DNA of 64,000 nt from an uncultured Actinomycetota bacterium. GTDB taxonomy: Bacteria; Actinomycetota; Actinomycetes; Mycobacteriales; Mycobacteriaceae. Shown here piece after piece: positions 5,449-44,389 of this stretch. Numbering within the stretch: position 1 is the first letter of the stretch; every line of letters starts with the position of its first letter. Under the pieces are notes generated by a model. That model ran no database searches. It was not told the origin of the DNA and saw only the letters and a program-made list of their open reading frames with translations. The stretch is taken from NCBI GenBank assembly GCA_963834615.1, contig CAWICO010000006.1:89158-153157 (forward strand), given 5' to 3'. The position numbers were made by a program, and so were the translations under genes.

Positions 5449-5586
5449 GGGGTGATCTCGTTTCTGGAAAGGTAACGCCCTGTGCGCTACCGATAAGGTA
5501 ACGATATATCGGAAGCTATCGTTTAGCAAGGCGGGATTCTGCCGAGACGGTTTGCCGCCCCGAAGAGAGCGGGTAGAAGCCACCTG

Positions 5587-13676: not shown

Positions 13677-13701
13677 GTTTGCCTCGGCCGTGCACGGGTA
13701 T
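13677..13701 (+). promoter_or_regulatory. SigF-type promoter GTTT-N15-GGGTAT
   Basis: Matches mycobacterial SigF consensus GTTT-N15-17-GGGTA; GTG start 9 nt downstream. Confidence 0.75.
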
Positions 13702-13710
13702 CCGAGACGG

Positions 13711-14727
13711 GTGACACGTTTCGGATACACCCTCATGACAGAACAGAACAACCCCAAAGATCTTGTCCAGTATGCGATTTCGGCAGAGCGACGAGGGTTT
13801 GACTTCGAGGTCAGCAGCGACCACTTTTCGCCGTGGCTGACATCGCAGGGGCACGCGCCCAATGCTTGGACGATGCTGGGCGCCGTCGCGCAGGCCACCG
13901 AGCGCGTTGGCCTTTACACCTATGTGACCTGCCCGACCATGCGTTATCACCCTGCAATCGTCGCGCAGCAGGCGGCGACGCTGCAGATCCTCGCCGACGG
14001 GCGCTTCACCTTGGGCCTGGGCAGCGGCGAAAACCTCAACGAGCACGTCGTCGGCAAGGGCTGGCCTGCCATCACGCAACGGCAGGACATGCTGCGTGAG
14101 GCGATCGACATCATTCGCGCCCTGTTCAGCGGCGACCTGGTCGATTGGCGGGGCGACTACTTCCAGGTGGATTCCGCGCGATTGTGGGACGTCCCGGACG
14201 TTCCGGTCGGCATCGGAATCGCGGTAGGTGGGAAAAAGGCGATCGACAAGTTCGGCCTTCTCGCCGATCACCTGATCGCGGTCGAACCAGACGGTGAGCT
14301 TGTGCGCGACTGGCATACGTTGCGGCAGGGCAACGGCTTGGCCGGCGGTGGCCGGGTCGTCGGGCAGATCCCGATTTGTTGGGACCCCGATCGGGACGCG
14401 GCCGTGCAGCGCGCACACGATCAATTTCGTTGGTTCGGCGGCGGATGGAGTGTCAACGCCGACCTGCCGACCCCTGCGGGCTTCGCCGGCGCCACACAAT
14501 TCGTCCGTCCTGACGATGTCGCCGAAGGTATCCCCTGCGGCCCGGACATCGACGCGATCGTCGATAAGGTGCGCCCCTACTGGGAAGCGGGGTTCACCGA
14601 CATCGCGGTGGTGCAAGTCGGCGGCGACAGCCAGGAACAATTTCTGAAGGAAGCCGCCGAGCCGTTACTGGACGCACTACGGTCGGCCGCCCCGAGCGAC
14701 AGCAATACCCGACCGAAGAAGGATTGA
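13711..14727 (+). CDS. F420-dependent LLM-class oxidoreductase (TIGR03557-like)
   Basis: MTRFGYTLMTEQ, SDHFSPW, LGLGSGENLNEH. Confidence 0.9.
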   Translation: MTRFGYTLMTEQNNPKDLVQYAISAERRGFDFEVSSDHFSPWLTSQGHAPNAWTMLGAVAQATERVGLYTYVTCPTMRYHPAIVAQQAATLQILADGRFTLGLGSGENLNEHVVGKGWPAITQRQDMLREAIDIIRALFSGDLVDWRGDYFQVDSARLWDVPDVPVGIGIAVGGKKAIDKFGLLADHLIAVEPDGELVRDWHTLRQGNGLAGGGRVVGQIPICWDPDRDAAVQRAHDQFRWFGGGWSVNADLPTPAGFAGATQFVRPDDVAEGIPCGPDIDAIVDKVRPYWEAGFTDIAVVQVGGDSQEQFLKEAAEPLLDALRSAAPSDSNTRPKKD

Positions 14728-14728
14728 A

Positions 14729-15286
14729 ATGTCGAATTCATTGCACGGCAAGAGGGTTGCGATCTTGGCTGCCGACGGCGTGGAGAAGGTCGAACTGGAG
14801 CAGCCCCGCGCGGAGCTCACTGAGAAGGGTGCCCACGTCGCGGTCCTCTCGCTGAAAGCCGGTGAGATCCAAGCACGGAACCACGATCTCGAGCCGGCAG
14901 GAACGATTGCTGTCGATCGAACGGTGTCAGATGCATCGGTCGAGGACTACGACGCCCTTGTCCTTCCCGGCGGCACGGTGAATCCGGACAAGCTCCGCGT
15001 CGACGACTCGGCTGTCTCGTTCGTGCGTGATTTCGTGATGTCCGGCAAGCCGGTCGCCGCGATCTGTCACGGGCCGTGGACGCTGGTTGAGGCGGGCGTG
15101 GTCGCGGGCCGGACCCTTACGTCGTATCCGAGCATCCGTACCGATCTACGGAATGCCGGCGCGAACGTCGTCGACGAAGAAGTCGCTGTCGACGGGAATG
15201 TCATCACCAGCCGGTCACCGGGTGACCTGCCGGCGTTCTGCGCGGCGCTTGTCAAGCAACTCGAGCAAGCTTCGGTGGGCGCCTAA
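14729..15286 (+). CDS. DJ-1/PfpI-family general stress protein (YhbO-like)
   Basis: GVEKVE glutamate, LPGG, AICHGP nucleophile elbow. Confidence 0.92.
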   Translation: MSNSLHGKRVAILAADGVEKVELEQPRAELTEKGAHVAVLSLKAGEIQARNHDLEPAGTIAVDRTVSDASVEDYDALVLPGGTVNPDKLRVDDSAVSFVRDFVMSGKPVAAICHGPWTLVEAGVVAGRTLTSYPSIRTDLRNAGANVVDEEVAVDGNVITSRSPGDLPAFCAALVKQLEQASVGA

Positions 15287-15301
15287 AAATATTACGCGGA
15301 A

Positions 15302-15327
15302 GTTTCGCGCTTTTGGTTTGTGGGCAT
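15302..15327 (+). promoter_or_regulatory. SigF-type promoter GTTT-N16-GGGCAT
   Basis: One mismatch to GGGTA(T); upstream of the methyltransferase. Confidence 0.55.
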
Positions 15328-15381
15328 GAGTGAGCGAAAGGTCGTGAATCCCACGGCCTTCACGTAGCTCGAAAGGCCGCC

Positions 15382-16074
15382 GTGACCATCTCCTACTCTC
15401 CGCTGTCTGATTCGCTGGATGTCGACGGTGTCTACCCGCCGCAACATGACTCGATGTTGTTGATCGAGGCTTTAGAGCGGGCCGGATTGGCGCCGGGGCG
15501 ACGGGTACTGGACCTGTGTACCGGCAGCGGAGTTGTCGCACTCGCTGCGGCCGCGATGGGAGCCTCCAGCGTGACCGCGTTCGACATCTGCCCGCACGCG
15601 GTCCGGTGTTCGCGCGATAATGCTGCTGGTGCCGGTGTCCATGTCGAAGTGCGCGAAGGATCATGGACAGGTGCCCTGGACTACGCTCCGTTCGAGGTCA
15701 TCGTCTCCAATCCGCCTTATGTGCCAACGCCATCAGACGGTGATATGGAGTGGATCCCGCCGGCGGCCGGCCCCGCGCGGGCATGGAATGCGGGTCTGGA
15801 TGGCCGGGCGGTGCTCGATCCGCTGTGCACCTCGGCGGCTGAATTATTGGCCGACGGTGGCTCGCTGCTCTTGGTGCATTCGGCACTCGCCGGTGCCGAG
15901 CGGTCACTGGATCTCTTGCGCTTCAACGGCTTGGATGCAAACGTCGTTGCCTCACAATGGATTCCCTTCGGGCCGGTGTTATCAGCGCGGGCTACTTGGT
16001 TGGAGCGCACGGGTCAGATCGAGCCGGGCTGTCGCACAGAGGAATTGATAGTCATCCGGGCGGACAAGCCGTGA
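15382..16074 (+). CDS. HemK2/MTQ2-like SAM methyltransferase
   Basis: VLDLCTGSG motif I, SNPPYVP amine-methylation motif, AWNAGLDGR. Confidence 0.9.
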   Translation: MTISYSPLSDSLDVDGVYPPQHDSMLLIEALERAGLAPGRRVLDLCTGSGVVALAAAAMGASSVTAFDICPHAVRCSRDNAAGAGVHVEVREGSWTGALDYAPFEVIVSNPPYVPTPSDGDMEWIPPAAGPARAWNAGLDGRAVLDPLCTSAAELLADGGSLLLVHSALAGAERSLDLLRFNGLDANVVASQWIPFGPVLSARATWLERTGQIEPGCRTEELIVIRADKP

Positions 16075-16316
16075 CCGCCCGGACCCGAGTGCAGGTGATT
16101 CCGAATGGCCCGGTGTTGATACCGGGGCCGGTGCGCATCGAGACACCCGGTGGCGCCGTCGTCGAATCCGACCGATTTATGGTTGCCGTGTGTACGTGTC
16201 GGCGCAGCAAGAACTATCCGATGTGCGACACCAGCCATCGGCGGTGTCGCCCGGCCCGCGTTGATCTTTCGGACGACAATGCCGGACAACAAGATTCAGA
16301 CAAGGGGTCGTCGTAA
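16071..16316 (+). CDS. CDGSH 2Fe-2S protein
   Basis: CTCRRSKNYPMCDTSH; GTGA overlap with the methyltransferase stop. Confidence 0.9.
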   Translation: MTARTRVQVIPNGPVLIPGPVRIETPGGAVVESDRFMVAVCTCRRSKNYPMCDTSHRRCRPARVDLSDDNAGQQDSDKGSS

Positions 16317-17315
16317 CGACGACTTTCCTGCTTCCCACGAGGCCATGATCGCATCGGCAAGCCGATCCTCGACCGCAGCGTGAGCCCGGATCCCGAATAC
16401 CACGTCGCGGTCCAGATGGGGCTCCCGCGCCACAAGATTGCCGACTACATCGATGCGCACTACTTGCTCGTGCACCGCGTCGGCCTCGACGTGCTCACGG
16501 TAGAACGCGATGCATGCCGGCGGCGCGGCCAGTCGCTGCAACGCTTCGACGAATCGGCGGGAACCCGGTGGCGAGGTGATCTCCGTTGAGGCGAAATGTC
16601 CGATCGCAGAACCACGGAACTGCCGGTGCAAGCCGAATAGCGACATCACGTTGACCACCGCCAGGGATTCGGCGGAAATGATGTCGAGATAGGCCAGATA
16701 GGTCGCGTCCAGACCGGCGGCGGTCAGCAGGTCGGCAAAAAGCTGCTGGTGGATGTTCGGGCCGTGCCCGGCGCCGTACTCGTCATATTCGATCGCGACA
16801 AATGACGCCTTGGCTTGGCCCACCAGTCGGGGGATGGCCCAGGCATGCGGGTCACCTTCCTTGAGGTGATACAGCGATCGATGCACGAAGTATTCGCGCA
16901 TCTGCTCCCATGTCCCGTGATCGCGTAGCCAATAGGACGGTCCAGTTCCGTCGCCAGATTCGATTGCGAGGCGGTCCATTTCGGCTTCCGCAGTGTCGCC
17001 CGGATCGATGGGGCCGACTTCACGGCGTAGCGCGGACAAAAAAGTACGCTCCATCTGGCCGCGTAGATGCAGTAGTCCGGGATTCCACTCCCAGGCGGGG
17101 TCGACCCCGTGGAAGCCGCGGTAGTGCAACTCGTAGCACATGTAGAGAGCGAGCTGCAGATCCAGGCCGTACGGATCGGAGTCGAGTACCGAACCGTCGA
17201 TGCGATTCAGGTAATCGCGGGGCGCCGATTCGGTGAGACTGCGTCGAACGGCCATCGACAGCGGCCCGCGCGCGGTGGGCAACTGAGGTTCGATTGTCGT
17301 TCGTAGTTGAGGCAC
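16296..17315 (-). CDS. Heme-oxygenase-like diiron oxidase (iron-containing redox enzyme family)
   Basis: HLKEGDPH, DEYGAGHGPNIH, STEITS and EHVEADAVHE metal-ligand motifs. Confidence 0.88.
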   Translation of the reverse strand: MPQLRTTIEPQLPTARGPLSMAVRRSLTESAPRDYLNRIDGSVLDSDPYGLDLQLALYMCYELHYRGFHGVDPAWEWNPGLLHLRGQMERTFLSALRREVGPIDPGDTAEAEMDRLAIESGDGTGPSYWLRDHGTWEQMREYFVHRSLYHLKEGDPHAWAIPRLVGQAKASFVAIEYDEYGAGHGPNIHQQLFADLLTAAGLDATYLAYLDIISAESLAVVNVMSLFGLHRQFRGSAIGHFASTEITSPPGSRRFVEALQRLAAPPACIAFYREHVEADAVHEQVVRIDVVGNLVAREPHLDRDVVFGIRAHAAVEDRLADAIMASWEAGKSSLRRPLV

Positions 17316-17323
17316 GCGGTTGT

Positions 17324-17350
17324 GTACCCGCCGATCGGTGGTCGTCAAAC
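17324..17350 (-). promoter_or_regulatory. SigF-type promoter GTTT-N17-GGGTAC
   Basis: Consensus match 8 nt before GTG 17315, implying a leaderless mRNA. Confidence 0.75.
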
Positions 17351-18441
17351 TGGCCATTCGCACCCGGTCAGCTCGACGGAGACGTCCCAAGGCCGGCGGG
17401 CCATCGCCGCGTCGCGGGCGTTTTTTGCGCGGCCGGGTCACCTTCGGCCTGCCCACTCGCTGAACCGCGGTGCCAGGTAACTGCCGGTCGTCACGCTGGG
17501 ACCAGCATCGTCTCGACCTGCACCGACCTGTTGCCAAGCGTGCCCGGTTGGCGGAGAAACGGGCTTAGGGATCGACGAGTGGACCGCCGAAGGGGGGTAG
17601 CCGCGGCCGAAAAGAACCTGCACATCGTCGTCGGCGAAATCCAAACGGGGAACGCTGCAGCACTGCGGATCATCATCAACGGACGCAGCCGCGCGACCGA
17701 CCTGATCCCTTTCATTCAGTACGGATTCGTCACGATGGACGGGCAGCCCGACCGGGTCGCAACCCACCGGGGTGGCGCGTGCGGCTGCCCTTGCTCGCGG
17801 CCCACGTCCCGTCGATGGGCAAGGAGCTACGCCCGTGGGTCATCTGGGTCCGTTGACTCGCAAGGTCATGCAGTATCAGCACCTCATGAAACAGTTCGTG
17901 CCGACCGCACACGGAGCACAGGACTGGGCGCTGCTCGCCAATTCGTATCGTTTACCACTTCGAACGCATCGGAAAGTCCCTTTAAGTCCACGATTGGTAC
18001 CAGTATACGGAGATGCTCAGTCAGTGGGCACGTTCAATCGACCCTTTCGAGACCACGGTAAAGCGTTCCGAGCAGCCCGACCTCGTGCACTTCGAAATTG
18101 CAGAGCGACACATCTGAAACCACGTGCGCACATCATGAACTCGATGAGTTTGACGCTGACGCGAAGTTCGCCGCCTCACTCGAATACCTGCAAAAGCCCT
18201 GGTAAGGGGGCTGCCTGAGCCCTTATTGAGCTGGGCAAAGTCCGAATAACGGCAAGTCCGCAGCGCTTTGGCGAACCGCAATGTCACGGCAACAAATCAG
18301 CGGAATAGGTGGCCCGGGCCTTTTGTACTCGTAAATATATTCTGTTTCCGGGTACTTCATGGTCGCGGTCGGGTTAACATCTTCAAATTCCGCGCTTGTT
18401 GCGCTTGATTGCAGTGACCATAGGGGGCTCCAGTGGTTTTA

Positions 18442-19098
18442 ATGTCTCGTGTCGTTTGGGCTGGGTTGGGTGCCGCTGCTGCGGCCGCGTTGATCCCGCT
18501 GGCATTGGCGCACGCCGATGACCAAGTCACCTTGGGGTCCGCTGGCCCAGACGTGCCCAACACGGCACTCGGCCCCGACGGGTATGTGGGGTTCCAGCCG
18601 TACTTCACCGAGTGGCAGCAGGACCAGCCGACCGATGTATACATAGATGGTTCGAAAGTCGCCGCCGGCAGCTATGACGTGTCCGAGACTGATCGCGCAA
18701 CCCCGTGGGTTGATCAGTCGGTCTATGACTTCGGCACAGCCACTAGTGGTGGTACCGACCCGGGTGGCCTGGAAGGCGCGACGGTGAGTGACTTCGCGTT
18801 GTACCCCAGCTTCAACGCCGCCACCGAGCAGGAGCCGCCGCCCGACGTGACCGCCGCGGTCGATAACATCTACGTGACGTTCAGCAACGGTAACGAGGAA
18901 GATGTCCTCACCACCGCCTCGGGTATCAACTTTTACGTGGATAACCCAGCGTCTGGCTCAGCTGACTGGTTCGAAGCACCGGGTTCTACCGTCCCTACCG
19001 AGCTATTTAGTAACCTGCCTGACACGTCAGCGGCGCTAGCGGCCGTCGAGGGTATTTCCAGCCTGTTGCCGCCCGACGTGTGGTTCCCCGGCATATGA
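18442..19098 (+). CDS. Secreted acidic protein of unknown function
   Basis: Signal peptide ending LALAHA; mature part has 1 K and 1 R. Confidence 0.8.
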   Translation: MSRVVWAGLGAAAAAALIPLALAHADDQVTLGSAGPDVPNTALGPDGYVGFQPYFTEWQQDQPTDVYIDGSKVAAGSYDVSETDRATPWVDQSVYDFGTATSGGTDPGGLEGATVSDFALYPSFNAATEQEPPPDVTAAVDNIYVTFSNGNEEDVLTTASGINFYVDNPASGSADWFEAPGSTVPTELFSNLPDTSAALAAVEGISSLLPPDVWFPGI

Positions 19099-19220
19099 CG
19101 TGGCCGAGCTGGACGGTTCGAACCTGGATTGAGTTCGGCGGCTCGGATCTTCTCTCTGGCGTGACGCTAGGGCGCAGCGGCGCCTGAACGTCGCTCAATA
19201 GTGGCTGTACGAGCCATTCA

Positions 19221-19297
19221 TGGTCGGGGTGGCGGGATTCGAACCCACGACCTCTTCGTCCCGAACGAAGCACGCTACCAAGCTGCGCCACACCCCG
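19221..19297 (-). tRNA. tRNA-Pro(CGG)
   Basis: CGGGGTGTGGCGCAGCTTGGTAGC…TTCGGGA loop…GGTTCGAATCC…CCA. Confidence 0.97.
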
Positions 19298-19495
19298 CGT
19301 GAAGCCACGACAGCGTATCGCACCAACCCGGCAAGCGGCCAAAGGGGATTGCCGGACCTGCCGTCGTTTGCCGTCGGTGCCACGCCAAACACAGCTGCCG
19401 TCAGGTTCGCGCAACATCCGGCGTGGAATAACCGGGTCCGCGGCGCCATTAACTAAACTAATGACTTCGCACATTGCAATGGAAGCGAGTGAATC

Positions 19496-19657
19496 ATGAC
19501 GGTGTTAGGCGCCGTGGTGTTCGGCGGATTCCTGGTCCTCGGGGTGCTGTGGCTGCTGTTCACCGCCCCGGATAGCGACGTCGATCAAGCGTGGGATCGA
19601 GCCTCGGGTGCAACCAGCGCTGCCGAAGGCGCTCTGGTGCTAACCAACTCGTCGTAG
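19496..19657 (+). CDS. 53-aa single-TM small protein
   Basis: [26 protein letters not shown]…; TAAACT -10 at 19454. Confidence 0.5.
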
Positions 19658-19691
19658 AACTAGCAGGCCGCGCAAAGGCCGCCAACCGGCT

Positions 19692-20651
19692 CTAGCGGGC
19701 CGAGTATGTCGGTTGCGACCGCCCCCGGATGCGCTGCGGATCGCGGCCCCCGGTCGGTGCGGCGATCAACGTCAGCAAGGTGGCTTCAGGCCTGCAGCAG
19801 AACCGCACCGGCGCGAACGGCGACGTGCCGATCCCAGCGGAGACGTGCAATTGCATGGTGGAACCCCAGCGCGACGGGCCTTTGGCGCGGGAGCGATCCA
19901 GACCCGAGTTGGTCACCAGGGCCCCGTAGAACGGCACGCACAACTGGCCGCCGTGCGTGTGGCCGGCCATCACCAGCTGGTACCCGTCTGCGGCGAAGCG
20001 GTCCAACACTCGCGGTTCCGGCGAATGGGTCAGACCCAGCCGCAGGTTGGCGGCCGGGCTGGCCGGACCCGCGATCGCGTCGTAACGGTCGCGCTTGATG
20101 TGCGGGTCGTCAACGCCGGTGGCGGCGATGTGCAGCCCCGCCACCTCCAACTCGCGCCGATTGTGAGTCAAGTCCAGCCAACCGCGCTCGGTGAATGCCG
20201 CTCGCAGGTCCTGCCACGGCAGCGGCTGGCCCTGCACCCGGTGGCCCGGGTTGGTCAGGTAGTTCAGCGGGTTCTTCGGTCGCGGCCCGAAGTAGTCGTT
20301 GCTGCCGAACACGAAAATACCGGGCACCGAGAGCAGGTCACCGAGGCTCTGAACGACTGACGGGACCGCCTTGGGGTGCGCCAGGTTGTCGCCGGTGTTG
20401 ACCACCAGGTCCGGCTCCAGGCCCGCGAGTTCACGCAGCCAAGCCTGCTTGCGGCGCTGTCCGGGGCGCATATGCAGGTCGCTGATGTGCAGCACCCGCA
20501 GCGGCGACGAGCCGGGCGTCAAGACCGGCATGGTCAGCTCTCGCAGCGCGAAGGCATTGCGCTCGATGATGGAGGCGTAGCCGATGCCGGCAACAGCCGA
20601 TCCGAGCGCGGCGACGCCGGTACTTTTCAGAGCGGTGACGGCGGAGGGCAT
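19692..20651 (-). CDS. Metallophosphoesterase (Rv3683-like)
   Basis: SDLH, TGD, GSND, THSP and GHTHGGQ motifs. Confidence 0.92.
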   Translation of the reverse strand: MPSAVTALKSTGVAALGSAVAGIGYASIIERNAFALRELTMPVLTPGSSPLRVLHISDLHMRPGQRRKQAWLRELAGLEPDLVVNTGDNLAHPKAVPSVVQSLGDLLSVPGIFVFGSNDYFGPRPKNPLNYLTNPGHRVQGQPLPWQDLRAAFTERGWLDLTHNRRELEVAGLHIAATGVDDPHIKRDRYDAIAGPASPAANLRLGLTHSPEPRVLDRFAADGYQLVMAGHTHGGQLCVPFYGALVTNSGLDRSRAKGPSRWGSTMQLHVSAGIGTSPFAPVRFCCRPEATLLTLIAAPTGGRDPQRIRGRSQPTYSAR

Positions 20652-42823: not shown

Positions 42824-42857
42824 GTTGCCGGAAGCGCGACAGCGGCTGCAGATGCGG

Positions 42858-42902
42858 AATAAAGCGGGCGGCGTACCGAAGTGATTCGGCTCGCCGCCCG
42901 CT
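42858..42902 (-). terminator. Ms1 intrinsic terminator
   Basis: 11-bp stem agcgggcggcg/cgccgcccgct followed by TTATT on minus strand. Confidence 0.75.
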
Positions 42903-43158
42903 AGCACGGATCCCGGTTACCAAGCGTGCATCTGTGGGCTGCGTGGGATGGCCTCGGCGATCTTGCGACGCTTCCGGCTGCAGCCCCACCCAAAGGGCCG
43001 TCGACACCGTTCACTCTTCGCAATTACGCAGGCCCGCAACACTTCTGCCATTATCGCGGCTATGACTCCGCGTGGGTGCCGGGAACCGTGCTGGGTTGTC
43101 CTGATCGGGAGACCGGCCCTTCTCTTCCGGATCGATCTTGGCCTTACCGGGCTTCCGT
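42858..43158 (-). ncRNA. Ms1: Ms1 RNA (MTS2823 homologue, RNA-polymerase-binding sRNA)
   Basis: 5' ACGGAAGCCCGGTAAGGCCAAGATCGATCCGGAAGAGAAGG; ~300 nt to terminator; Rv3661-Rv3662c position. Confidence 0.88.
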
Positions 43159-44294: not shown

Positions 44295-44389
44295 CACTCG
44301 GCTTAGCCGAGGGTGTATCAGCCCGACCCCCCGGGGCTGATACACGACGACCCTCGCCTCCTCCCCCCCTGGCGGGGGTCGTCCCTTTT
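44295..44389 (+). ncRNA. 6C: 6C RNA (M. tuberculosis B11 homologue)
   Basis: Two hairpins with C-rich loops (44313-44345, 44346-44383) then CTTTT; Rv3660c-Rv3661 position. Confidence 0.92.

What the first reader, a model, noticed from the sequence alone, without database searches (positions are those of the whole stretch)
15382..17315. Candidate undescribed pathway: NPPY methyltransferase + CDGSH 2Fe-2S protein + heme-oxygenase-like diiron enzyme
Seen: methyltransferase and CDGSH genes are translationally coupled (GTGA); the diiron enzyme converges with a 21-nt overlap and retains its E/H/E/H/D/H ligand motifs. Known: this fold performs N-oxygenation and C-C cleavage (SznF, BesC, UndA, CADD); SznF acts after the N-methyltransferase SznE; NPPY enzymes methylate amine or amide nitrogens; CDGSH clusters are labile redox centres. 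Inference: an N-methylate-then-oxidise module with its own electron donor, acting on an unknown small molecule or protein under SigF control.
Basis: partly seen in the sequence, partly recalled or inferred. Interest (0 to 1): 0.75.

Follow-up and report, generated by a model that had tools for sequence, protein, structure and literature searches.

The report
SigF-controlled diiron oxygenase, CDGSH, methyltransferase module
Three overlapping mycobacterial genes (an oxygen-activating diiron enzyme, a small iron-sulfur protein that probably feeds it electrons, and a HemK2-type methyltransferase) form a stress-induced module that is conserved across actinobacteria, matches M. smegmatis MSMEG_1771-1773, and has no known substrate.

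Summary
The window carries a 230-aa NPPY methyltransferase (15382-16074), an 81-aa CDGSH protein that starts inside the GTGA stop overlap (16071-16316), and a convergent 339-aa heme-oxygenase-like diiron enzyme (HDO, 16296-17315) with a 21-nt 3' overlap.

The trio is a real module. All three genes lie within 5 kb in 60 of 71 HDO-bearing Mycobacteriaceae genomes, and within 4 kb in 71 of 80 named actinomycete loci, although their order changes.

SigF control is supported. GTTT-N15-17-GGGYA promoters precede both transcription units here and in most Mycobacterium loci. sigF itself often lies nearby. The M. smegmatis orthologues MSMEG_1771-1773 drop about 60-fold in a sigF deletion mutant.

The HDO keeps all seven SznF iron ligands, including the extra "N-oxygenase" Glu. 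Its nearest structures are HrmI, SznF and RohS.

The "methylate, then oxidise a small molecule" reading is not supported as stated. The invariant core is HDO plus CDGSH. Other actinobacterial lineages have a membrane GT2-like gene in place of the methyltransferase. The methyltransferase is HemK2/MTQ2-type, a family that acts on proteins, but it is not the housekeeping PrmC.

Substrate and product remain unknown. This scan has met the same module before in other genomes.

The parts
15302..15326 (+). SigF-type promoter (GTTT-N16-GGGCA), 55 nt upstream of the MT start
   Evidence: Pattern scan. An equivalent motif precedes the MT gene in 35 of 36 Mycobacterium-like loci.
15382..16074 (+). HemK2/MTQ2-type SAM-dependent N-methyltransferase, 230 aa, with DLCTGSG and NPPYVP motifs
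   Evidence: TIGR00537 97.4 bits, cut-off 87. Best PDB match is human N6AMT1/HemK2, E 4e-13. The conserved motifs are listed. Public names are given.
16071..16074 (+). GTGA stop/start overlap that couples MT and CDGSH translation
   Evidence: Sequence. A 4-29 nt MT/CDGSH overlap occurs in 53 of 71 related loci; 27 of these are ATGA or GTGA.
16071..16316 (+). CDGSH-type [2Fe-2S] protein, 81 aa, with the variant motif C-x-C-x2-S-x3-P-x-C-D-T-S-H
   Evidence: PF09360 at 58.6 bits. Best PDB match is the bacterial CDGSH protein 3TBM, E 9e-7. C41, C43, C52 and H56 are at least 95% conserved.
16296..16316 (.). 21-nt convergent 3' overlap of the CDGSH and HDO genes
   Evidence: The same 21-nt overlap occurs in 18 related loci.
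16296..17315 (-). Heme-oxygenase-like diiron enzyme (HDO), 339 aa, with the SznF-type 3-His/4-carboxylate ligand set
   Evidence: PF14518 at 190.6 bits. Ligand alignment. Ligand invariance. AF2 model with pLDDT 91.7. Foldseek top matches are HrmI, SznF and RohS. The published MSMEG_1773 qPCR primer matches 17119-17138 at 18 of 20 bases.
17325..17350 (-). SigF-type promoter (GTTT-N17-GGGTA) ending 9 nt before the HDO start codon; the mRNA is probably leaderless or has a very short leader
   Evidence: The motif is at the equivalent place in 32 of 38 Mycobacterium-like loci.
13677..15286 (+). Context only. A third SigF-type promoter (13677-13700) precedes an F420-dependent LLM oxidoreductase (about 13700-14727) and a DJ-1/PfpI gene (14729-15286). 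These are co-regulated neighbours, not conserved partners.
   Evidence: LLM lies near the trio in only 5 of 41 loci and DJ-1 in only 4 of 41.

Best explanation
This is the local copy of a conserved actinobacterial stress module, orthologous to M. smegmatis MSMEG_1771 (MT), MSMEG_1772 (CDGSH) and MSMEG_1773 (HDO). It is transcribed from two converging SigF-dependent promoters. The core is the HDO plus the CDGSH protein. The HDO is a SznF/RohS-like 3-His/4-carboxylate diiron enzyme. It uses O2 to oxygenate a nucleophilic heteroatom, most likely an amine or guanidine nitrogen, on a substrate that is still unknown. The CDGSH [2Fe-2S] protein most likely re-reduces the diferric cluster one electron at a time; an upstream reductase has not been identified. 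The HemK2/MTQ2-type methyltransferase is co-translated with the CDGSH protein. It adds a methyl group to an amino or amide nitrogen of the same substrate or product. It is a lineage-specific tailoring partner, because other lineages carry a membrane GT2-like transferase in its place. Shown here: gene anatomy, module conservation, promoter conservation, ligand conservation and fold. Taken from the literature: SigF dependence of the orthologues. Inferred: the electron-donor role, N-oxygenation, and a substrate shared with the MT.
For: Module conservation. HDO, MT and CDGSH lie within 5 kb in 60 of 71 HDO-bearing Mycobacteriaceae genomes. HDO and CDGSH lie together in 68 of 71. In named loci from Mycobacterium to Streptomyces, Micromonospora and Actinopolymorpha, 71 of 80 carry all three within 4 kb, in three different arrangements. 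One genome, G099, has two complete paralogous trios. HDO+CDGSH adjacency persists in other actinobacterial classes: at least 22 of 44 HDO-bearing genomes outside the family.

Regulation. Three of the four SigF motifs in the window sit just upstream of the three transcription units at 13677-17350. The motif precedes the HDO in 32 of 38 and the MT in 35 of 36 Mycobacterium-like loci, against a background of about 0.2 per kb. An rsbW-sigF pair lies within 8 kb of the trio in 10 of 41 loci. MSMEG_1771/1772/1773 fall by log2 -4 to -6.4 in a sigF deletion mutant (PMC4694148). They rise by log2 3.9-5.0 in a phoH2 deletion mutant (PMC7390352 supplement).

Orthology to M. smegmatis. The MSMEG_1773 reverse qPCR primer encodes CYELHY, the family signature. 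It matches window 17119-17138 at 18 of 20 bases and matches the HDO gene in 74 of 80 loci. Reads-to-RPKM ratios give gene lengths of 222, about 71 and about 340 aa.

Enzyme type. All seven SznF ligands are invariant. The model has a helix break at E153. The nearest structures are three N-oxygenases. McBride 2021 predicts that HDOs with the extra Glu are N-oxygenases. Their largest such cluster is uncharacterised and rich in Streptomyces and Mycobacterium.

Need for a partner. HDO N-oxygenases are assayed with NADH/PMS, and their cofactor is unstable. MboA/MboB shows that an HDO can need a dedicated [2Fe-2S]-containing partner.
Against: There is no biochemical evidence for any step. The CDGSH protein has no reductase domain, and no NAD(P)H-linked reductase is conserved nearby. 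The 2026 review says the HDOs studied so far need no protein effector. HrmI, the closest structure, is a six-ligand enzyme, so the seventh Glu does not strictly mark N-oxygenation. About a third of HDO-bearing genomes outside the family show no nearby CDGSH. The MT-CDGSH pair stays together when separated from the HDO in three sampled genomes (G082, G098, G005). This could mean that the CDGSH protein serves the MT instead. I did not verify that this protein belongs to SSN cluster 1 of McBride 2021, because no supplement is held.
Confidence: 0.5

Rival explanations
1. This is a small-molecule pathway of the SznE/SznF type. The MT first N-methylates a free amine, for example on an amino acid. 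The HDO then N-oxygenates the methylated product, with electrons from the CDGSH protein.
For: The HDO's nearest characterised relatives all act on free amino acids or small amines: HrmI, SznF and RohS. The NPPY motif marks N-directed methyl transfer. The trio is tightly linked.
Against: The MT is absent from many HDO+CDGSH loci, where a GT2-like gene takes its place. An obligatory first step would not be replaceable in this way. The MT belongs to the HemK2/MTQ2 family, whose known substrates are proteins. The HDO has no cupin domain, and no conserved transporter or biosynthetic neighbours were found. Nothing bears on reaction order.
Confidence: 0.15
2. This is a protein- or peptide-directed modification module. 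In stationary phase or under stress, the MT methylates a Gln or Lys side chain of a protein. The HDO, with the CDGSH protein, oxidises a side-chain nitrogen of the same or a related macromolecule.
For: The MT scores above the HemK2/MTQ2 cut-off and aligns over residues 16-191 with human N6AMT1, including the VYxPxxD, NPPY and AWxGGxxGR motifs. An HDO acting on a peptide side chain now has a precedent, MboA on a tripeptide. There is no small-molecule pathway context. The module belongs to a general stress regulon.
Against: All the nearest HDO relatives use small substrates. No candidate target or precursor-peptide gene is conserved next to the trio. A GT2-like membrane transferase as the alternative partner fits a lipid or small-molecule acceptor better.
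Confidence: 0.2
3. The CDGSH protein is not an electron donor. It is an iron or cluster donor, or a redox/O2/NO sensor, that re-loads or gates the HDO's labile diiron site. Alternatively, it is a Trm112-like structural partner of the MT.
For: The HDO diferric cofactor disintegrates after turnover. CDGSH clusters are labile and transferable (established knowledge of mitoNEET, not tested here). MT and CDGSH are always adjacent and co-directional, are usually translationally coupled, and stay paired when the HDO lies elsewhere. Eukaryotic and archaeal Mtq2 needs the small metal-binding partner Trm112 (established knowledge).
Against: HDO+CDGSH pairs exist without any MT, so the CDGSH protein cannot be only an MT subunit. 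A Trm112 homologue is encoded elsewhere in this genome. Small [2Fe-2S] proteins next to diiron oxygenases are classically electron carriers. MboB is a redox partner.
Confidence: 0.15
4. The three genes are only co-regulated SigF stress genes with unrelated functions. The HDO might, for example, act as an O2, H2O2 or NO scavenging oxidase.
For: The surroundings hold other stress genes: DJ-1/PfpI and an F420 oxidoreductase here, and catalase, ChaB/Rho_N-type proteins and hemerythrin in relatives. Each transcription unit has its own promoter.
Against: Adjacency survives rearrangement of order and orientation. It extends to orders where the mycobacterial SigF motif is not detected. The trio duplicates as a unit in G099. 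Other neighbours are conserved in at most 10 of 41 loci.
Confidence: 0.08

Closest known systems
M. smegmatis MSMEG_1771 / MSMEG_1772 / MSMEG_1773 (SigF regulon genes annotated 'methylase, putative' and two 'conserved hypothetical' proteins)
   Same: They have the same three genes, sizes (222, about 71 and about 340 aa) and layout. SigF promoters sit upstream of the MT and the HDO. The published MSMEG_1773 primer encodes the HDO signature CYELHY.
   Different: They come from a different species. Orthology was inferred from the primer, the gene sizes and the layout, not from full sequences. No function has been published. A mutant lacking MSMEG_1771 is viable, and this MT is not the mycofactocin methyltransferase.
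SznF (HDO domain, PDB 6VZY) with the methyltransferase SznE, from the streptozotocin pathway
   Same: It has the seven-ligand 3-His/4-carboxylate site, including the aux-alpha2 Glu. TM-score is about 0.7. A methyltransferase gene is associated with it.
   Different: The window HDO has no cupin domain and no N-terminal dimerisation domain (339 aa against 471). Identity is about 17%. There is no biosynthetic gene cluster. The MT is HemK2-type and dispensable in other lineages. A CDGSH partner is present. That SznE acts first is recalled knowledge and was not tested here.
HrmI / BelK (L-lysine N6-oxygenase, PDB 9N1A, 9NH9) and RohS (2-aminoimidazole N-oxygenase, PDB 9PFX)
   Same: These are the best sequence match (E 2.8e-9) and the best structural matches (TM 0.70 for HrmI; TM normalised to target 0.82 for RohS). 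They are stand-alone HDOs of similar size.
   Different: Identity is 16-20%. HrmI is a six-ligand enzyme. Both belong to natural-product clusters and have no CDGSH partner. They are assayed with NADH/PMS.
MboA / MboB (mangotoxin acetylenase HDO with a dedicated flavin/[2Fe-2S] reductase)
   Same: An HDO gene lies beside a gene for a [2Fe-2S] protein that is needed for turnover. This is the only published dedicated HDO redox pair.
   Different: MboB is an NAD(P)H-flavin-[2Fe-2S] reductase, not a CDGSH protein. MboA is a six-ligand desaturase acting on a tripeptide. The system is from Pseudomonas and sits in a toxin gene cluster.
HemK2/N6AMT1-Trm112 (eukaryotic and archaeal Mtq2) and bacterial PrmC
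   Same: They share the Rossmann-fold MT with VYxPxxD, GxGxG and NPPY motifs. Like Mtq2, the window MT lacks the PrmC N-terminal domain. A small metal-binding protein is co-encoded.
   Different: The PrmC model scores 96 bits against a cut-off of 199. The housekeeping prfA-prmC locus lies elsewhere. The partner here is a CDGSH protein, not Trm112. The target is unknown.
Bacterial single-domain CDGSH proteins (for example PDB 3TBM)
   Same: They have the same NGP beta-cap and the same 3-Cys/1-His motif.
   Different: This clade has the signature CDTSH rather than CDGSH. It has a fixed genomic partner, the HDO, whereas the solved bacterial CDGSH proteins have no assigned function.

Membership tests
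Heme-oxygenase-like diiron oxidase/oxygenase (HDO) superfamily, Pfam PF14518 | Profile match above the curated cut-off, and the seven-helix HO-like fold | tested here: met
   The match is 190.6 bits against a cut-off of 28.9. The AF2 model has pLDDT 91.7 and is all-helical. Foldseek gives HrmI, SznF and RohS at TM about 0.7, with E values down to 1.5e-10.
Heme-oxygenase-like diiron oxidase/oxygenase (HDO) superfamily, Pfam PF14518 | Three His and three carboxylate metal ligands on the core helices | tested here: met
   E179, H189, E245, H275, D279 and H282 align with SznF E215, H225, E281, H311, D315 and H318. They are invariant in alignments A1 and A2.
SznF-like (3His/4carboxylate) predicted N-oxygenase subgroup of HDOs | An extra Glu ligand on an interrupted aux-alpha2 helix | tested here: met
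   E153 aligns with SznF E189 at identical spacing to the next ligand. The motif K-E-(A/G)-D-P-H is invariant. The model shows a helix break at residue 153. The criterion comes from PMC7848743.
SznF-like (3His/4carboxylate) predicted N-oxygenase subgroup of HDOs | Demonstrated N-oxygenation of a substrate | not testable with these tools
   This needs enzyme assays.
CDGSH iron-sulfur domain (PF09360) | The motif C-x-C-x2-(S/T)-x3-P-x-C-D-G-(S/A/T)-H with three Cys and one His ligand | tested here: met
   The match is 58.6 bits against a cut-off of 29.5. C41, C43, C52 and H56 are present and at least 95% conserved. Gly is replaced by Thr, giving CDTSH, across the clade.
HemK2/MTQ2 family protein methyltransferase (NCBIfam TIGR00537) | Score above the curated cut-off, NPPY and SAM motif I, and no PrmC N-terminal domain | tested here: met
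   The score is 97.4 bits against a cut-off of 87. NPPYVP at 110-115 and D44/G48/G50 are conserved. The protein is 230 aa and aligns from residue 16 to N6AMT1 residue 10.
HemK2/MTQ2 family protein methyltransferase (NCBIfam TIGR00537) | Methylates the GGQ glutamine of a release factor, working with Trm112 | not testable with these tools
   A Trm112 homologue exists elsewhere in the genome. No linkage or activity data are available.
Bacterial PrmC (release factor N5-glutamine methyltransferase, TIGR03534) | Score above the equivalog cut-off, and a position next to prfA | tested here: not met
   The score is 96.3 bits against a cut-off of 199.1. The gene beside prfA on contig C7 is a different MT, 32% identical.
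Mycobacterial SigF regulon | A GTTT-N14-19-GGGTA-type promoter directly upstream | tested here: met
   Motifs lie at 15302-15326(+) and 17325-17350(-). They are conserved in 35 of 36 MT and 32 of 38 HDO upstream regions. The consensus is taken from PMC4694148.
Mycobacterial SigF regulon | Expression depends on SigF | not testable with these tools
   This is shown only for the M. smegmatis orthologues, in the literature.
SznE/SznF-type 'methylate then N-oxygenate' pathway | The methyltransferase is an obligatory partner of the HDO, with a cupin domain or biosynthetic cluster context | tested here: not met
   HDO+CDGSH occurs without the MT in other lineages. The HDO has no cupin domain. No conserved biosynthetic neighbours were found.
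Dedicated HDO-redox-partner pair (MboA/MboB type) | An adjacent gene for an Fe-S electron-transfer protein that is needed for turnover | tested here: inconclusive
   Adjacency of a [2Fe-2S] protein gene is met: 68 of 71 genomes. The CDGSH protein lacks the flavin/NAD(P)H domains of MboB. Whether it is required has not been tested.

The most novel reading that the evidence does not exclude
The CDGSH protein is the dedicated physiological redox partner, or cofactor-repair partner, of the largest uncharacterised HDO clade. Together with the HemK2-type methyltransferase it installs a previously unknown stress-induced N-oxygenated and N-methylated modification. The target would be a protein or peptide side chain, or a cell-envelope-linked amine, in stationary-phase actinobacteria. 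This would give bacterial CDGSH proteins their first defined function and would define a new post-translational or metabolite modification.
Probability: 0.15. Interest if true: 0.85.

Novelty: new variant of a known kind. Interest (0 to 1): 0.6.

Why it matters
Bacterial CDGSH proteins have had solved structures for over a decade but no assigned function. HDOs are a fast-growing enzyme class, and their largest sequence cluster, rich in Streptomyces and Mycobacterium, is uncharacterised (PMC7848743). Only one dedicated HDO redox partner has been described, MboB in 2026.

This module links the two open questions. An SznF-type HDO is almost always encoded beside a CDGSH protein. In the model organism M. 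smegmatis the orthologues are strongly and specifically switched on by SigF, and one knock-out strain already exists.

That makes the function directly testable by genetics, metabolomics and proteomics. It also offers a way into what the mycobacterial general stress response does chemically.

Tried and rejected
1. I tried to fetch the M. smegmatis locus by scanning for the published MSMEG_1773 promoter sequence. The scans covered genome contigs, one neighbouring genus, and 400 genomes of the window's own genus. None matched, and this used 411 genomes of the quota. Approximate matching of both published promoter sequences against the 80 named loci also found nothing useful, because the spacers are not conserved. 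The link was finally made through the published qPCR primer and the reads-to-RPKM ratios.

There is therefore no read-level check of expression or of the prmC frameshifts.

3. The supplement of McBride 2021 is not held. Membership of SSN cluster 1 could not be verified.

4. I searched for further conserved neighbours in 41 loci of 17 kb each. Nothing beyond the trio exceeds 10 of 41 loci. The best are sigF at 10, a zinc alcohol dehydrogenase at 9, a short-chain dehydrogenase at 7 and an rsbW-like gene at 6. I therefore rejected the idea of a larger operon or biosynthetic cluster.

5. The GT2-like gene that replaces the MT in other lineages is absent from this genome.

6. No natural HDO-CDGSH or MT-CDGSH fusions were seen. 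The long open frames reported are overlaps in different reading frames.

7. Literature searches that combined CDGSH with heme-oxygenase-like returned nothing. Searches that combined CDGSH, or heme-oxygenase-like diiron, with Mycobacterium returned nothing on this module.
Full report
**Anatomy**

The window is high-GC mycobacterial DNA. The closest named relatives of its proteins are M. shimoidei, M. cookii, M. kyorinense and M. celatum.

- The methyltransferase (MT) is 15382-16074(+), 230 aa.
- The CDGSH gene is 16071-16316(+), 81 aa. Its GTG start overlaps the MT stop codon as GTGA.
- The heme-oxygenase-like diiron enzyme (HDO) is 16296-17315(-), 339 aa. Its last 21 nt overlap the end of the CDGSH gene.

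Pfam and NCBIfam assign them as follows:
- The MT hits MTS/PF05175 and TIGR00537 HemK2/MTQ2, at 97.4 bits against a cut-off of 87.
- The CDGSH protein hits PF09360 at 58.6 bits.
- The HDO hits PF14518 at 190.6 bits.

Each gene is single-copy in the 5.2-Mb genome.

The HDO start at GTG 17315 is supported by homologues. Their conserved LPxxRGPLS motif begins at residue 12.

**Is the trio a module?**

Yes.

In 101 genomes of the same GTDB family, the HDO occurs in 71, the MT in 68 and a CDGSH protein in 74. Comparing coordinates, all three lie within 5 kb in 60 of the 71 HDO-bearing genomes. HDO and CDGSH lie together in 68 of the 71.

A scan of species-representative genomes found at least 596 relatives. 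Of the 80 best named loci, 71 have all three genes within 4 kb. These loci span:
- Mycobacterium, Mycolicibacterium and Mycolicibacter
- Williamsia, Rhodococcus, Dietzia and Nocardia
- Streptomyces
- Prauserella, Amycolatopsis, Saccharomonospora, Actinokineospora, Actinosynnema and Kutzneria
- Micromonospora, Actinoallomurus and Actinopolymorpha

Gene order varies. The three arrangements are H> C< M<, H> M> C> and M> C> H>. In every case the MT lies directly upstream of the CDGSH gene on the same strand. In 53 of 71 loci the CDGSH start overlaps the MT 3' end by 4-29 nt.

One genome carries two complete paralogous trios (G099).

Linkage that survives rearrangement and duplication is strong evidence for a functional unit.

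**The core is HDO plus CDGSH**

In a 301-genome sample of the phylum, the HDO is found in 52 genomes and a CDGSH protein in 112. The MT orthologue (E <= 1e-20) is found in only 15, all from two families.

In the other lineages the HDO and CDGSH genes are still neighbours. This holds for at least 22 of 44 HDO-bearing genomes outside the family.

There, a protein of about 340 aa lies between them and is often start/stop-coupled to the HDO. It has a DDD motif, sub-threshold GT2/GT21 Pfam hits, and a weak match to a membrane GT2 mannosyltransferase, 6YV7. This gene is absent from the present genome.

The MT is therefore a lineage-specific partner. It is not an obligatory first step.

**Regulation**

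The pattern GTTT-N14-17-GGGYA occurs four times in the 64-kb window, against 1.7 expected. Three of the four lie at 13677-13700(+), 15302-15326(+) and 17325-17350(-). These positions are directly upstream of the LLM/DJ-1 gene pair, the MT and the HDO.

In Mycobacterium-like loci the motif precedes the HDO in 32 of 38 cases and the MT in 35 of 36, against a background of about 0.2 per kb. It is rarely detected in the Rhodococcus, Nocardia and Streptomyces loci (7 of 79 upstream regions). Their stress-sigma consensus may differ.

A SigF-type sigma factor gene lies within 8 kb of the trio in 10 of 41 loci from different genera, usually preceded by an rsbW-like kinase gene. It scores 273 bits on TIGR02980 against a cut-off of 234, and 352 bits on NF005514.

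**Link to published experiments**

In M. smegmatis, three genes are among the most strongly down-regulated in a sigF deletion mutant, by log2 -4.1 to -6.4. They are MSMEG_1771 ('methylase, putative', 222 aa), MSMEG_1772 and MSMEG_1773. SigF promoters lie 29 nt before MSMEG_1771 and 11 nt before MSMEG_1773 (PMC4694148; PMC5445863).

I could not fetch that locus. Two independent published items identify it instead.

First, the MSMEG_1773 reverse qPCR primer from PMC7390352 reverse-complements to codons for C-Y-E-L-H-Y. This is the invariant signature of this HDO family. The primer matches window 17119-17138 at 18 of 20 bases, with no chance matches. It matches the HDO gene in 74 of the 80 named loci.

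Second, the reads-to-RPKM ratios in the same supplement give gene lengths of 222, about 71 and about 340 aa.

So MSMEG_1771-1773 is the same trio. Other published data on it:
- It rises by log2 3.9-5.0 in a phoH2 deletion mutant.
- MSMEG_1773 protein rises in a pafBC deletion mutant.
- MSMEG_1771 is ethanol-induced. Its deletion mutant was made and is viable, and MSMEG_1771 did not prove to be the mycofactocin methyltransferase, which is MftM (PMC9679996).

No paper assigns a function to any of the three genes.

**The HDO**

By sequence the best solved relatives are HrmI (E 2.8e-9), SznF (2e-5) and RohS.

In the gap-free SznF alignment, E153, E179, H189, E245, H275, D279 and H282 match the seven SznF ligands. 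These include Glu189, the extra carboxylate. McBride et al. used that residue to predict N-oxygenases. Their largest predicted group, cluster 1, has 1,780 sequences, is rich in non-pathogenic Streptomyces and Mycobacterium, and is uncharacterised.

All seven residues are invariant in 16 sequences down to 35% identity and in 36 named sequences.

An AlphaFold2 model (pLDDT 91.7, pTM 0.90) shows a helix break exactly at E153, as in SznF. Its top Foldseek matches are the three N-oxygenases HrmI, SznF and RohS. These rank ahead of FlcD, CADD, PqqC, PolF and BesC.

One caveat applies. HrmI has six ligands, so the seventh Glu is suggestive but not diagnostic.

**The CDGSH protein**

It keeps the three Cys and one His ligands. 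It carries a clade-specific CDTSH signature.

HDO N-oxygenases are driven in vitro by NADH/PMS. Their diferric cofactor falls apart after turnover. In 2026 MboA/MboB was reported as possibly the first dedicated HDO-redox partner pair. MboB is a flavin/[2Fe-2S] reductase.

A small [2Fe-2S] protein encoded beside nearly every member of this HDO clade is therefore most simply read as its electron donor. Iron re-supply or gating remain possible. No upstream reductase is conserved nearby.

**The MT**

It is HemK2/MTQ2-like:
- Its best solved match is human N6AMT1.
- The motifs VYxPxxD, DxxxGxG, NPPYVP and AWxGxxGR are conserved.
- NCBI names its relatives 'HemK2/MTQ2 family protein methyltransferase', and JGI names them 'release factor glutamine methyltransferase'.

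It is not the housekeeping enzyme. The PrmC model scores well below its cut-off. A separate prmC gene follows prfA on contig C7.

Known members of this family methylate protein Gln or Lys. This weakens the small-molecule reading but does not exclude it.

**Verdict**

The best reading is a SigF-dependent module. Its core is an SznF-type HDO served by a CDGSH [2Fe-2S] protein. A co-translated HemK2-type N-methyltransferase acts as a lineage-specific tailoring partner. Substrate, product and reaction order are unknown.

The enzyme families are known, and the genes were already listed as anonymous SigF-regulon members. The HDO-CDGSH partnership and the module as a unit are not described in the literature I could search.

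Earlier notes of this scan describe the same module in other genomes and reach similar conclusions. I re-derived the shared points independently. I add the identification with MSMEG_1771-1773 and the proximity of sigF.

Noticed in passing
L003 about 1400-1510 (G000 contig C7, about 116700-116820): The canonical prmC gene downstream of prfA reads in three different frames. FGPLD is in one frame, VGPGVFIPRPETE in the next, and PVIVDVCTGSG...NPPY in a third. That implies two frameshifts within about 100 nt. It is either a pseudogene or an assembly error.
   Followed up: partly
L016-L025 (for example L016:4341-5333:+, L021:3443-4462:-): In other actinobacterial lineages, a GT2-like protein of about 340 aa lies between the HDO and CDGSH genes in place of the methyltransferase. 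It has an invariant DDD motif and a hydrophobic C-terminus, and is often start/stop-coupled to the HDO.
   Followed up: partly
L040:5047-5904:+, L044:4327-5549:+ and eight other loci: An rsbW-like anti-sigma kinase gene and a sigF gene lie within 8 kb of the trio in 10 of 41 loci from different Mycobacteriaceae genera. ChaB/Rho_N genes are nearby in some.
   Followed up: partly
window 13677-15286: A SigF-type promoter (GTTT-N15-GGGTA) overlaps the longest-ORF start of an F420-dependent LLM oxidoreductase (TIGR03557 family). The true start is therefore probably a few codons downstream. A DJ-1/PfpI gene follows after a 1-nt gap.
   Followed up: partly
window 17350-19700: A stretch of lower GC (about 59%) follows the HDO promoter. 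It holds ORFs without Pfam hits (18433-19098 +, 19007-19474 -) and a tRNA gene at 19224-19297(-). This may be the edge of the island.
   Followed up: no
window 42856-43158(-) and 44312-44387(+): Ms1 sRNA (240.9 bits) and a 6C RNA (92.3 bits) were found by Rfam at gathering threshold.
   Followed up: no
window 5550-5575(+): This is the fourth SigF-type motif in the window (GTTT-N17-GGGTA). It lies outside the island.
   Followed up: no
G099 contig C3 207177-209037 and contig C4 309310-311435: One family genome carries two complete HDO/CDGSH/MT trios whose HDOs differ markedly in identity to the window HDO (54% versus 40%). This shows duplication of the module as a unit and the existence of two HDO subclades in the family.
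   Followed up: no
L033:4074-5579:+ and L034:307-2520:+: Where no CDGSH gene is adjacent, the HDO neighbours include a divergent group II PLP-dependent decarboxylase in one genome and a large catalase in another. The first is a possible hint at an amine substrate and the second at a stress context.
   Followed up: no
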